From assembly GCF_030013205.1 (NCBI RefSeq), contig NZ_CP122648.1: a stretch of DNA of 64,000 nucleotides; one strand, 5' to 3'. The notes under the pieces were generated by a model, which saw nothing but the letters and a program-made list of their open reading frames with translations, was not told the DNA's origin and did no database searches. This DNA is from Escherichia coli. GTDB lineage: Bacteria > Pseudomonadota > Gammaproteobacteria > Enterobacterales > Enterobacteriaceae. Both the position numbers and the translations under genes were made by a program. Shown one piece after another: positions 36,693 through 42,855 of this stretch; position 1 is the stretch's first letter, and each line of letters begins with the position of its first letter.

Positions 36693-36720
36693 TCTTTTGT
36701 AGATTGCACTTGCTTAAAAA

Positions 36721-36745
36721 TCCCGCCATCGGCGGGATTTTTTAT
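36721..36745 (+). terminator. hns rho-independent terminator
   Basis: TCCCGCC-ATC-GGCGGGA hairpin followed by TTTTTT. Confidence 0.75.
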
Positions 36746-36781
36746 TGTCCGGTTTAAGACAATTTAATAAGAATAAGCTAT

Positions 36782-37497
36782 AATAAATATCCTCCGGCAT
36801 AGCCGGAGGTTTTTCAAATGCGCCTATAAGGCTCTCTTACCAGCCGCGCCCTAACAGGCGCACACGATCTGACATTTGCATCCAACTTCGTTACTTACGG
36901 CCCGTAAACGGGCTGCCCGGATAGGGAATCGATAACTGCTCTCCCATTTTATCCTCTTCAAGCTGGTGCTTTATGTAATCCTGTATCTTCGCCGTGTTCT
37001 TACCCACCGTATCGACGTAGTACCCTCTGCACCAGAACTCTCTGTTCCTGTATTTGAATTTCAAATCACCAAACTGCTCGTAAAGCATCAGACTGCTTTT
37101 CCCTTTCAGATATCCCATAAAGCCGGATACGCTCATTTTGGGCGGGATCTCCACAAGCATATGGATATGATCTGCACAGCATTCAGCTTCCAGAATCCGT
37201 ACGCTTTTCCACTCACACAGCTTTCTCAAAATACTGCCTATTGCTCTACGCTTCTCTCTGTAGAACACTTGTCTTCGGTATTTTGGCGCAAAAACTATGT
37301 GATATTTACAGTTCCATCGGGTGTGCGCTAAGCTCTTTTCGTTCCCCATTGGGACCCCCTTTTGATTTCTTGTTTGACACTTGCAGTTGCCAGACCGCAA
37401 GGTGTTTTAACAAATCAAAAGGGGTTTTAATAACTGGCTCAAAGCTGAAAGCTTTCCGGAACCCCCAGCCTAGCTGGGGGTTTTCTGTGCACAAAAA
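36782..37497 (-). mobile_element. IS200 copy A
   Basis: About 716 bp; end hairpins CCTCCGGCATAGCCGGAGG and CCCCCAGCCTAGCTGGGGG; near-identical to copy B; boundaries from where the two copies diverge. Confidence 0.85.
36891..37349 (-). CDS. tnpA: IS200 transposase TnpA (Y1/HUH, 152 aa)
   Basis: MGNEKSLAHTRWNCKYHIVFAPKYRRQV..., matching IS200 TnpA as I recall it. Confidence 0.9.
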   Translation of the reverse strand: MGNEKSLAHTRWNCKYHIVFAPKYRRQVFYREKRRAIGSILRKLCEWKSVRILEAECCADHIHMLVEIPPKMSVSGFMGYLKGKSSLMLYEQFGDLKFKYRNREFWCRGYYVDTVGKNTAKIQDYIKHQLEEDKMGEQLSIPYPGSPFTGRK

Positions 37498-37547
37498 AAC
37501 GGCGTCGATTGCTCAACGCCGTTTCGTGGATAACACCGATACGGATG

Positions 37548-38456
37548 TTACTTCTTAATGCCCATCTCTTCTTCAAGCCAGGCTTTAAATTCCGTGCCAA
37601 GGGTGTTATGACGAATACCGTATTCAACGAAGGCCTGCATGTAACCTAATTTATTACCGCAGTCATGGCTCTTCCCTTTCATATGATAGGCTTCCACCGT
37701 TTCTTTTTCGATCAGCATATCAATTGCGTCGGTGAGCTGAATTTCATCACCAGCTCCCGGAGGGGTTTTTGCCAGCAACGGCCAAATATCCGCGCTAAGT
37801 ACGTAACGACCCACAATAGCGAGATTAGACGGCGCAACATCCGCTTTCGGTTTTTCTACCACACCAACCATCGGTACGCTTTCACCCGGCGCTAATTCAA
37901 CGCCTTTGCAATCCACAACGCCATATGCGGTAACATCAGCAACCGGTTCAACCATGATCTGGCTATGACCCGTTTCATCAAAGCGGCGGATCATCTCTGC
38001 CAGGTTATCCTGTGACAAATCGGATTCATATTCATCCAGAATAACGTCAGGCAAAATAACAGCCACAGGTTCATCACCCACTACCGGGTGAGCACACAAT
38101 ACCGCATGTCCCAGGCCTTTCGCCAGCCCCTGACGAACTTGCATAATAGTCACGTGCGGCGGACAAATAGACTGCACTTCATCAAGCAGTTGACGTTTTA
38201 CACGTTTTTCCAGCATTGCTTCCAGTTCAAAACTGGTATCAAAGTGGTTTTCAATCGAGTTTTTAGATGAGTGAGTAACCAGCACAATTTCAGTAATGCC
38301 AGCCGCAATACATTCATTCACGACGTATTGAATTAATGGCTTATCGACAAGTGGCAGCATCTCTTTCGGGATGGCTTTCGTCGCCGGCAACATCCTGGTT
38401 CCTAATCCCGCAACGGGGATAACGGCTTTTTTGACTTTCGTATTAATGGCAGCCAT
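37548..38456 (-). CDS. galU: UTP-glucose-1-phosphate uridylyltransferase GalU
   Basis: 302-aa [38 protein letters not shown]... Confidence 0.97.
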
Positions 38457-42131: not shown

Positions 42132-42290
42132 TCGCCAGCAAAAATAACTGGTTACGTTTAATCCGTTACGGATGAAAATTACGCAACCAGTTCATTTTTC
42201 TCAACGTAACACTTTACAGCGGCGCGTCATTTGATATGATGCGCCCCGCTTCCTGATAAGGGAGCAGGCCAGTAAAAAGCATTACCCCGT

Positions 42291-42375
<85 letters not shown>

Positions 42376-42409
42376 TCTCAAGCATTACCTCAAAATTTGA
42401 ATTACCCTT

Positions 42410-42494
<85 letters not shown>

Positions 42495-42855
42495 TCACTT
42501 TCAAAAGTCCCTGAACTCTCAAACGAATCCGTAATTAAACATTCTGCCCAAGCGGGGAAGGATGAGAAGCTTCGACCAAGGTTCGACTCGAGCGCCAGCG
42601 AGAGAGCGTTGCCGCAGGCAACGACCCGAAGGGCGAAGCGCGCAGCGCTGAGTAATCCTTCCCCCACCACCATCACTTTCAAAAGCCCCGGAATTCTCAA
42701 ACGAATCCGCAATTAAATATTCTGCCCATGCGGGAAAGGATGAGAAGCTTCGACCAAGGTTCGACTTGAGCGCCAGCGAGAGAGCGTTGCCGCAGGCAAC
42801 GACCCGAAGGGCGAAGCGCGCAGCGCTGAGTAATCCTTCCCCCACCACCATCACT
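42495..42855 (+). repeat. rtT: rtT region: two tandem ~178-bp repeats, each ending with the tRNA-Tyr 3' segment
   Basis: Two near-identical units each ending AATCCTTCCCCCACCACCATC. Confidence 0.8.

What the first reader, a model, noticed from the sequence alone, without database searches (positions are those of the whole stretch)
36782..37548. IS200 inserted exactly at the T-tract of the galU terminator (and likewise at kdsA)
Copy A ends within the A/T run that forms the U-tract of the galU terminator hairpin (ACGGCG...CGCCGT on the minus strand). Copy B (59836-60550) ends within the U-tract of the kdsA terminator (AAAGCCTTAGCG...CGCTAAGGCTTT). Both are in the same orientation relative to the terminator, which suggests terminator-proximal target preference.
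Basis: seen in the sequence. Interest (0 to 1): 0.4.

Follow-up and report, generated by a model that had tools for sequence, protein, structure and literature searches.

The report
IS200 inserts at terminator T-tails
Two copies of the small mobile element IS200C sit exactly at the end of the T-tail of the galU and kdsA transcription terminators; a survey of about 140 other insertions shows that this whole group of elements nearly always lands there, a habit reported before only in weaker form.

Summary
Copy A is 36782-37492 and copy B is 59835-60545. Both are 711-bp IS200C elements with tnpA on the minus strand.

Empty-site alignments show each copy inserted without target duplication, directly after the T-run of an intact hairpin+T-run terminator (galU, T7; kdsA, T6). 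In both, the left end abuts the T-run.

This is not chance:
- All 80 distinct IS200C left-end junctions from other genomes and metagenomes have a GC-rich hairpin and a 5-10 nt T-rich tail with core TTNTT. The last two bases are T in 80 of 80.
- Only 16-18% of matched control TTNTT sites look like this (p about 1e-46 to 1e-61).
- 52 of 57 relatives from Proteobacteria, Clostridia and Negativicutes, and two Yersinia pestis IS1541 copies, show the same pattern.

Inferred mechanism: the conserved AAAA just 5' of the left-end hairpin pairs with the T-rich core (the IS608 guide rule). The target also resembles the element's own right end, a hairpin plus a 9-nt tail ending TTATT.

The association is not new. 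From memory, it was reported for IS1541 in 1998. A 2025-26 preprint shows it statistically for the IS200 family. What I add is its near-obligate precision and breadth.

The parts
36782..37492 (-). IS200C copy A, 711 bp. The right end is at 36782 and the left end at 37492.
   Evidence: Alignment of the two copies and with the empty K-12 site; repeat family D1; RefSeq annotation of the identical region as an IS200C family transposase.
36891..37349 (-). tnpA of copy A, 152 aa, Y1 HUH transposase.
   Evidence: ORF list; Pfam PF01797 Y1_Tnp, E = 3.8e-38.
37462..37480 (-). Left-end subterminal hairpin, CCCCCAGC-TAG-GCTGGGGG. It starts 12 nt from the left tip.
   Evidence: Fold energy -18.7 kcal/mol. 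Conserved in position in 57 relatives. Described for Salmonella IS200 as a bidirectional terminator (PMC4513863).
37481..37484 (-). AAAA directly 5' of the left-end hairpin; candidate guide sequence (GL).
   Evidence: Read from the sequence. The motif GAAAAC is conserved in relatives. The guide role is inferred from the IS608 rule (PMC5934647).
37359..37482 (-). Match to Rfam STnc490, the IS200 5'UTR / art200 sRNA region.
   Evidence: Rfam RF01405, 146.4 bits against a gathering score of 56.
36782..36809 (-). Right end: hairpin CCTCCGGC-TAT-GCCGGAGG (36791-36809) plus the 9-nt tail ATATTTATT (36782-36790). It is preceded by GAAAAA.
   Evidence: Fold energy -15.9 kcal/mol, z = -4.3. The simple scan calls it terminator-like. 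The same architecture appears in about 40 of 44 relatives.
37493..37524 (-). galU intrinsic-terminator-like hairpin (37500-37521, extended by A:T pairs to 37524) and its T7 tract (37493-37499). This is the target of copy A.
   Evidence: Fold energy -19.8 kcal/mol, z = -5.2. Present and intact at the empty K-12 site. Lies 55 nt after the galU stop codon.
37548..38456 (-). galU coding sequence, co-oriented with tnpA and upstream of the left end.
   Evidence: ORF list; RefSeq annotation.
59835..60545 (-). IS200C copy B, 711 bp, 5 mismatches to copy A, with identical TnpA (tnpA at 59944-60402).
   Evidence: RefSeq annotation.
60546..60577 (-). kdsA intrinsic-terminator-like hairpin (60552-60574, extended by A:T pairs) and its T6 tract (60546-60551). 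This is the target of copy B.
   Evidence: Fold energy -19.4 kcal/mol, z = -5.6. Present at the empty site in strain 2016C-3878. Lies 51 nt after the kdsA stop codon at 60597-60599.
60597..61451 (-). kdsA coding sequence, co-oriented with tnpA of copy B.
   Evidence: ORF list; RefSeq annotation.

Best explanation
Both features are ordinary copies of IS200C, a single-gene element of the IS200 group in the IS200/IS605 family. The family is known to move as single-stranded DNA using the Y1 HUH transposase TnpA. Each copy was pasted into the strand that reads 'hairpin then T-tail', immediately 3' of the tail of an intrinsic terminator (galU, kdsA). The left end abuts the tail, nothing is duplicated, and the terminator stays intact.

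Shown here: this placement is the element's normal target choice. The target is a GC-rich hairpin followed by a 5-10 nt T-rich tail whose last five bases are TTNTT.

Inferred:
1. The T-rich core is read by base pairing with the conserved AAAA just 5' of the left-end hairpin, as the guide sequence reads TTAC in IS608.
2. The hairpin requirement arises because the target copies the element's own right end (GAAAAA, 8-bp hairpin, 9-nt tail ending TTATT), or because a hairpin extruded on single-stranded DNA presents the tail.
3. The target strand is the lagging-strand template.

Likely consequences (inferred): the upstream gene keeps its terminator. tnpA sits behind two terminators in series, the host's and the left-end hairpin. 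The insertion should therefore be close to harmless and the transposase nearly silent, which fits IS200's reputation as dormant yet multi-copy.

The confidence of 0.85 applies to the identification and to the terminator-like target rule. For the inferred recognition mechanism (guide pairing plus right-end mimicry) I would give about 0.45.
For: Identity of the element:
- Pfam Y1_Tnp match, RefSeq 'IS200C' annotation, and Rfam STnc490 match.

Precise insertion without duplication:
- Empty-site alignments.

Target rule for IS200C:
- There are 129 junctions and 80 distinct flanks.
- Base counts: position -1, T in 80/80; -2, T in 80/80; -3, T 51, A 15, G 8, C 6; -4, T in 73; -5, T in 79.
- 71 of 80 pass a strict automated terminator-like test and 80 of 80 pass a loose one.
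- Among 684 control TTNTT sites (outside long ORFs, 15-150 nt downstream of a co-oriented ORF), 16.1% and 17.7% pass. Binomial p = 2e-46 and 7e-61.
- Median DNA folding energy is -10.9 for observed flanks against -2.6 kcal/mol for controls.
- A co-oriented ORF of at least 80 codons ends within 150 nt upstream at 58 of 76 sites, at a median of 42.5 nt.

Breadth:
- 54 of 57 relatives (66-94% TnpA identity; Enterobacterales, Vibrio, Sutterella, Clostridia, Negativicutes, Erysipelotrichaceae) have a TT|G junction, and 52 have the hairpin.
- Yersinia pestis IS1541A and IS1541B conform.

Guide and cleavage logic:
- GAAAA(A) precedes both end hairpins, and the right end finishes in TTATT or TTTTT in about 40 of 44 relatives.
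- The IS608 rule is that the guide 5' of the hairpin pairs with the cleavage or target site (PMC5934647).

Strand:
- The window's plus strand has negative GC skew throughout, so both top strands lie on the G-rich strand, which is the lagging-strand template.
- 46 of 61 surveyed flanks have positive skew on the top strand.
Against: - No transposition assay, so target selection is inferred from surviving insertions.
- The IS608 model does not predict any need for a hairpin in the target. Both TnpA hairpin-binding sites are thought to be occupied by the element's own ends during integration. What reads the hairpin is therefore unknown.
- There is no covariation between guide and target to exploit, because the guide is invariant.
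- The GC-skew bias is confounded by gene orientation.
- One frequent site (yncD-mcbR type, L009) appears head-on to replication, judged from my memory of the K-12 map.
- 18 of 76 sites lack an obvious co-oriented upstream ORF.
- The simple terminator scan missed both host terminators. The terminator call therefore rests on folding energies and gene context.
Confidence: 0.85

Rival explanations
1. Survivorship rather than targeting. IS200 inserts after any TT or T-run, and only copies that land just past a terminator persist, because those are harmless.
For: Only fixed insertions were seen. Sites after terminators are plausibly neutral. 58 of 76 sites lie just downstream of a co-oriented ORF. 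The 2025-26 preprint reads the family-wide signal as a persistence niche.
Against: Equally 'safe' control sites (TTNTT, outside ORFs, 15-150 nt downstream of a co-oriented ORF) are terminator-like in only 16-18% of cases, against 89-100% observed. Selection for harmlessness would not fix the orientation in 80 of 80 cases. It would not fix the hairpin-to-cut distance at 5-10 nt either. Nor would it explain the same rule holding in distant phyla.
Confidence: 0.07
2. Transcription-coupled targeting. The element uses the single-stranded non-template strand exposed where RNA polymerase pauses and releases at an intrinsic terminator. The hairpin would then matter as RNA, not as DNA.
For: The cut lies 5-10 nt (mode 6-7) after the stem. 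From general knowledge, this is about where intrinsic termination occurs. The target strand is the non-template strand of the upstream gene wherever one is identifiable (58 of 76 sites; both window copies).
Against: The family is experimentally tied to the lagging-strand template at replication forks (PMC5027513). Both window copies, and 75% of flanks by GC skew, fit that. The element's own right end has the same hairpin+tail form, which points to DNA-level recognition. 18 of 76 sites have no obvious upstream gene.
Confidence: 0.15
3. Coincidence. The target is just a T-run, and two copies happen to lie near terminators because long T-runs are concentrated there.
For: Both window sites are pure T6/T7 runs. 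Two cases alone prove little.
Against: Only 8.4% of all TTTTT-ending sites, and 14.3% of those outside ORFs, have an adjacent hairpin, against 80 of 80 observed junctions. About a third of targets have non-T bases in the tail (TTATT, TTGTT, TTCTT, TAATT), yet all keep the hairpin.
Confidence: 0.01
4. Mis-drawn boundaries. The hairpin and T-run belong to the element and travel with it.
For: IS200 ends are themselves hairpin-rich, and automated IS callers place the ends imprecisely.
Against: Genomes lacking the element carry the same hairpins and T-runs at both sites. The 80 flanking hairpins all differ in sequence.
Confidence: 0.01

Closest known systems
IS1541 of Yersinia pestis (IS200 group)
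   Same: About 87% DNA identity to IS200C. It has the same end structures and the same junction type: hairpin + ATTGTT or T6, then GTGCCCAGAAAACC. From memory only (Odaert et al. 1998, J Bacteriol 180:178, not held in the library): stem-loops resembling rho-independent terminators were noted at 8 of 14 insertion sites and proposed as hot spots.
   Different: As I recall it, that report was a partial association with no defined cut position or core. Here the rule is essentially complete (80 of 80), positioned to the base, and extended to E. coli and to other phyla.
IS608 / ISDra2 (IS200/IS605 family, experimentally characterised)
   Same: They share the Y1 HUH TnpA, subterminal hairpins, absence of inverted repeats and target duplication, and insertion 3' of a short sequence that abuts the left end. 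That sequence is read by a guide 5' of the left-end hairpin (PMC5934647). They also share a lagging-strand template preference (PMC5027513).
   Different: Their targets are plain tetra- or pentanucleotides (TTAC, TTGAT) with no required secondary structure. IS200-group targets add an obligatory upstream hairpin, tolerate any base at position -3, and have a left tip-to-hairpin distance of 12 nt.
Bacterial group IIC introns
   Same: They insert just downstream of intrinsic-terminator motifs, an inverted repeat followed by Ts (PMC1702495, PMC4748821). The 'safe site' logic is the same, and the target is a structure plus a very short sequence.
   Different: They are ribozyme/reverse-transcriptase retroelements that recognise the stem-loop with intron RNA. 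They share no protein or mechanism with IS200.
Structure-targeting insertion sequences and RAYT/REP systems (ISPpu9 in REPs; TnpA-REP)
   Same: Extragenic hairpins are the substrate or target. RAYTs are Y1 relatives of IS200 TnpA, and REPs carry a guide tetranucleotide 5' of the hairpin (PMC8450116; PMC6006769).
   Different: The targets are a specific repeated REP sequence family, not the generic class of terminators. ISPpu9 is reported as inserted into REP sequences, but I did not check its transposase family. RAYTs are domesticated genes rather than mobile elements.
Family-wide statistic in bioRxiv 10.1101/2025.07.22.666184
   Same: It reports terminator-like sequences over-represented immediately upstream of insertion sequences, most strongly for IS200/IS605. 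Its Supplementary Table 1 gives 40.21% of 20,314 IS200-family copies with such a sequence upstream of the ORF and outside the element, against at most 4.1% for the seven other families in the excerpt I read.
   Different: It treats the whole family together and interprets the signal mainly as limiting transposase expression. It uses automated element boundaries. In the parts I read it gives no cut position, core motif, right-end resemblance or guide logic.

Membership tests
IS200/IS605 family, IS200 group | Encodes a Y1 HUH transposase (TnpA, about 150 aa) as its only gene. | tested here: met
   The 152-aa ORF matches PF01797 with E = 3.8e-38. The motifs HIH and ...DYIKHQ are visible in the translation. 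There is no tnpB and the element is 711 bp.
IS200/IS605 family, IS200 group | No terminal inverted repeats and no target-site duplication. | tested here: met
   Filled versus empty site alignments at galU/hns and kdsA. The ends, GTGCAC... and ...TTTATT, are not inverted repeats.
IS200/IS605 family, IS200 group | Subterminal hairpins at both ends. | tested here: met
   Left-end hairpin -18.7 kcal/mol; right-end hairpin -15.9 kcal/mol with z = -4.3. Both are conserved in relatives.
IS200/IS605 family, IS200 group | Insertion 3' of a specific short sequence that then flanks the left end. | tested here: met
   The core TTNTT abuts the left end in 80 of 80 distinct junctions.
IS200/IS605 family, IS200 group | A guide sequence 5' of each hairpin, complementary to the cleavage sites. 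| tested here: inconclusive
   GAAAA(A) precedes both hairpins and could pair with TTNTT or TTATT. Pairing itself was not tested, and there is no covariation to exploit.
IS200/IS605 family, IS200 group | Single-stranded circular intermediate, with the top strand inserted into the lagging-strand template. | not testable with these tools
   Orientation is consistent: negative GC skew on the window's plus strand and positive skew on the top strand in 46 of 61 flanks. This is confounded by gene orientation.
IS200/IS605 family, IS200 group | IS200-type 5'UTR / antisense sRNA region (STnc490 / art200). | tested here: met
   Rfam RF01405, 146.4 bits, in both copies.
Intrinsic (rho-independent) terminator (the two target sites) | A GC-rich stem-loop followed directly by a T-run, shortly after a co-oriented gene. 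| tested here: met
   Fold energies -19.8 and -19.4 kcal/mol, z = -5.2 and -5.6, followed by T7 and T6. The sites lie 55 and 51 nt after the galU and kdsA stop codons.
Intrinsic (rho-independent) terminator (the two target sites) | Actually terminates transcription. | not testable with these tools
   No transcript data. The simple scan missed both sites because of its loop and tail rules.
Group IIC intron | [quoted passage not shown] | tested here: not met
   The only ORF is a Y1 transposase. Rfam found no intron family in the window. The resemblance is in target choice only.

The most novel reading that the evidence does not exclude
Across several bacterial phyla, IS200-group elements use a structure-dependent target that the IS608 paradigm does not predict. 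That target is any intrinsic-terminator-like hairpin with a 5-10 nt tail ending TTNTT. In effect it is a surrogate of the element's own right end, and it is used almost without exception. If this has not been set out explicitly before, it would explain how a 'dormant' element stays multi-copy and harmless. It would also supply the missing substrate for IS200 transposition assays.
Probability: 0.45. Interest if true: 0.6.

Novelty: already known. Interest (0 to 1): 0.4.

Why it matters
In this window the matter is ordinary. These are two catalogued IS200C copies, also present at the same sites in 118 (galU) and 255 (kdsA) of 5,426 complete E. coli genomes.

The general rule behind them is more useful:
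- It predicts where IS200-group elements can land.
- It would explain, if the inferred consequences hold, why they rarely break genes and why tnpA is so poorly expressed.
- It helps annotators place the ends of elements that lack inverted repeats and duplications.
- It suggests that assays of IS200 transposition, which is reported to occur at a notoriously low frequency (PMC4513863), should offer a single-stranded terminator hairpin with a TTNTT tail as target.
- It adds a second, mechanistically unrelated class of mobile element, beside group IIC introns, that exploits terminators as safe sites.

Tried and rejected
- **Simple terminator scan.** It missed both host terminators because of its loop and tail rules, though it did flag the element's right end. 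I used folding energies and context instead.
- **Literature.** Nine full-text searches and about 20 look-ups found no explicit statement that IS200 targets terminators. Odaert 1998, Cornelius 2009, Siguier 2014, He 2015 and Barabas 2008 are not held. The 1998 prior art is therefore cited from memory only.
- **Tandem dimers as a test of 'right end = target'.** Exact right-end/left-end junctions occur in 80 genomes, and three dimers checked lie at three different loci. This does not discriminate, because a second hit on the same intact terminator gives the same structure.
- **GC skew as a test of lagging-strand bias.** 46 of 61 flanks are positive, but the result is confounded by the co-oriented upstream gene.
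- **Covariation between guide and right-end tail among relatives.** None is visible, because the guide is nearly invariant.
- **Survey of the source genome itself.** I could not list all roughly 18 copies of strain K_EC180, because the genome search returns only one place per record.

Full report
**What is in the window**

Positions 36782-37492 and 59835-60545 hold two 711-bp copies of one element. They differ at 5 positions, lie in the same orientation, and are 23,053 bp apart. Each has one gene on the minus strand: 152 aa, identical in both copies, matching Pfam Y1_Tnp with E = 3.8e-38. RefSeq annotates the identical sequence in E. coli K_EC180 as an IS200C family transposase. Rfam finds the IS200 STnc490 region in both copies.

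On the element's top strand (the window's minus strand) the ends read as follows.
- Left end: GTGCACAG-AAAA-[CCCCCAGC TAG GCTGGGGG].
- Right end: GAAAAA-[CCTCCGGC TAT GCCGGAGG]-ATATTTATT.

Both hairpins fold well, at -18.7 and -15.9 kcal/mol.

**The observation**

Directly 5' of each left end lies a host hairpin followed by a T-run.
- Downstream of galU: ACGGCGTTGAGCAATCGACGCCGT then T7, -19.8 kcal/mol, z = -5.2, 55 nt after the stop codon.
- Downstream of kdsA: GCCTTAGCGTTCTGCGCTAAGGC then T6, -19.4 kcal/mol, z = -5.6, 51 nt after the stop codon.

A K-12 derivative has the uninterrupted galU/hns site...GACGCCG-T7|ATAGC.... Strain 2016C-3878 has the uninterrupted kdsA site...TTAAGAC-T6|CATGG.... 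The elements therefore sit exactly at the 3' end of the T-run. Nothing is duplicated or lost, and the terminators remain whole. The junction is ambiguous by 0-2 nt because the right end also ends in TT.

Its end coordinate for copy A includes the terminator, and copy B is 59835-60545. The filled galU site occurs in 118 of 5,426 complete E. coli genomes and the filled kdsA site in 255.

**Is it more than chance?**

I collected left-end junctions from other assemblies in two ways. I looked up the exact TnpA protein, and I scanned metagenome contigs for the first 31 nt of the left end. Together with the window, this gave 129 junctions with enough upstream sequence, falling into 80 distinct flanks.

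Every one shows a GC-rich hairpin followed by a T-rich tail ending against GTGCAC.

| Position | Base counts |
|---|---|
| -1 | T 80/80 |
| -2 | T 80/80 |
| -3 | T 51, A 15, G 8, C 6 |
| -4 | T 73/80 |
| -5 | T 79/80 |
| -6 | T 61/80 |

The core is TTNTT. The tail from the GC foot of the stem to the cut is 5-10 nt, most often 6-7.

I applied a strict automated test: DNA folding energy at or below -6 kcal/mol, at least 5 pairs, at least 3 G-C pairs, and a tail of 4-11 nt. It passes 71 of 80 flanks. The other 9 are clear hairpins whose tail pairs with an upstream A-tract. Relaxing the tail rule passes 80 of 80.

Controls came from the same E. coli DNA.

| Control set | Fraction terminator-like |
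|---|---|
| All TTNTT sites | 6.6% |
| TTNTT outside long ORFs | 8.9% |
| TTTTT-ending sites outside ORFs | 14.3% |
| TTNTT outside ORFs, 15-150 nt downstream of a co-oriented ORF | 16.1% strict, 17.7% loose |

Against that last and most favourable control, binomial p is 2e-46 (strict) and 7e-61 (loose). A co-oriented ORF of at least 80 codons ends within 150 nt upstream at 58 of 76 sites, at a median of 42.5 nt.

**Breadth**

A scan of one genome per species with the TnpA protein returned 80 loci at 66-94% identity. They come from Enterobacterales, Vibrio, Sutterella, Clostridia, Negativicutes and Erysipelotrichaceae.
- Of the 57 loci with a recognisable left-end hairpin and enough flank, 54 have a TT|G junction at the expected distance.
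- 52 of those also have the flanking hairpin.
- Two of the remaining cases conform by eye.
- Three copies in Colibacter massiliensis share the left end and differ in the hairpin beside it.
- Two Yersinia pestis IS1541 copies on pFra/pMT1-type plasmids read AGCGCCCATAGTGGGCGCTATTGTT|GTGCCC and GGCCACTATATTTAGTGGCCTTTTTT|GTGCCC.

The right end is equally conserved. It consists of GAAA(A/T)A, an 8-bp CC-led stem, a 3-nt loop, and a 9-nt tail ending TTATT or TTTTT, in about 40 of 44 relatives.

**How it most likely works**

Shown: the elements are IS200-group members, inserted precisely and without duplication after a hairpin plus TTNTT tail, always left end first.

Established for the family, from the literature: TnpA moves the top strand as single-stranded DNA and inserts it 3' of a short target. 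That target is read by base pairing with a guide located 5' of the left-end hairpin. The right-end cleavage site is read the same way by a second guide (PMC5934647). Targets lie preferentially on the lagging-strand template (PMC5027513).

Inferred for IS200:
- The AAAA before each hairpin is the guide.
- TTNTT (target) and TTATT (right tip) are the cleavage sites.

The hairpin requirement is the part the IS608 model does not predict. The simplest reading is that the target imitates the element's right end, which the independent scan itself classifies as terminator-like. Alternatively, an extruded hairpin on single-stranded DNA may present the tail.

Both window copies have their top strand on the G-rich strand, the lagging-strand template. 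46 of 61 surveyed flanks agree, but this is confounded by the co-oriented upstream gene.

Consequence (inferred): the host terminator survives, and tnpA sits behind it and behind its own left-end terminator hairpin (PMC4513863). That fits a nearly silent but persistent element.

**Rivals**

- **Survivorship alone.** It cannot explain 100% orientation, the fixed distance, or the excess over equally safe control sites.
- **Transcription-coupled access to the non-template strand at terminating polymerase.** This is not excluded. The cut lies about where termination occurs, and the target strand is the non-template strand of the upstream gene wherever one is identifiable. The right-end resemblance and the family's link to replication argue for DNA-level recognition.
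- **Chance, or mis-drawn boundaries.** Both are refuted by the survey and the empty sites.

**Comparison with what is known**

The element passes every sequence-level membership test for the IS200 group.

The association with terminators is not new.
- From memory, and not verifiable here because the paper is not held, Odaert et al. 1998 noted terminator-like stem-loops at 8 of 14 IS1541 sites and called them possible hot spots.
- A 2025-26 preprint reports terminator-like sequences immediately upstream of insertion sequences, most strongly for IS200/IS605. It gives 40.21% of 20,314 copies upstream of the ORF and outside the element, against at most 4.1% in the seven other families in the excerpt I read. 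It reads this mainly as limiting transposase expression.
- In the searchable library I found no statement of the exact cut position, the TTNTT core, the right-end resemblance or the near-obligate character.
- Group IIC introns are the closest functional analogue.

**Verdict**

The thing itself is a catalogued element behaving as its group does, so I rate novelty as already known. Interest is moderate, because the rule turns out to be much stricter and more widespread than the literature I could reach states, and because it is directly testable.

Noticed in passing
L215, L216, L217 (E. coli chromosomes); junction query: Exact head-to-tail IS200C dimers (...ATATTTATT|GTGCAC...) occur in 80 of 5,426 genomes. 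Three that I checked lie at three different loci, each behind a terminator. In one, the two copies differ at 8 positions, so they are separate insertions. Either the resident right end was used as the target, or the same intact terminator was hit twice.
   Followed up: partly
window 36718-36746 (+): The hns terminator reads hairpin + TTTTTTATT on the plus strand. It looks like a perfect IS200 target only about 36 bp from copy A, yet it is empty. It lies on the C-rich strand, the leading-strand template.
   Followed up: no
L024 and L097 (metagenome contigs): The same terminator (AAAAAAACCGGGGAAATTCCCCGG...) carries IS200C after T7ATT in one contig and after T8 in another. This could be two independent insertions or a polymorphic tail.
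   Followed up: no
L009-type junction (yncD / mcbR neighbourhood): This was the most frequent junction in the metagenome sample (8 of 129). Judged from my memory of the K-12 map, the upstream gene there is head-on to replication, which would be an exception to the lagging-strand rule.
   Followed up: no
window 36756-36784 (+): A promoter-like match (AAGACA, 17 nt, TATAAT; 10 of 12) spans the flank/right-end junction and points into the element, antisense to tnpA. The count is no higher than in shuffled sequence (1 found, 1.5 expected).
   Followed up: no
window 58812-59646: There are two tandem 535-bp Ldr/rdlD type I toxin-antitoxin repeats (Rfam rdlD at 58983-59048 and 59518-59583). They sit next to copy B's right flank. 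The terminator-like hairpin just downstream of the second Ldr toxin ORF, at 59788-59813, is unoccupied.
   Followed up: no
window 42286-42850 and 6220-6387: There is a duplicated tRNA pair followed by two RtT repeats (Rfam RF00391), and a sok antitoxin RNA match (RF01794).
   Followed up: no
plasmid collection, hits H47-H73: Many E. coli plasmids carry truncated IS200 pieces. These include the left 337 bp or 498 bp at 96-98% identity, and a 141-bp right-end piece at 92% identity on plasmids of about 90 kb. They are unannotated in the gene tables.
   Followed up: no
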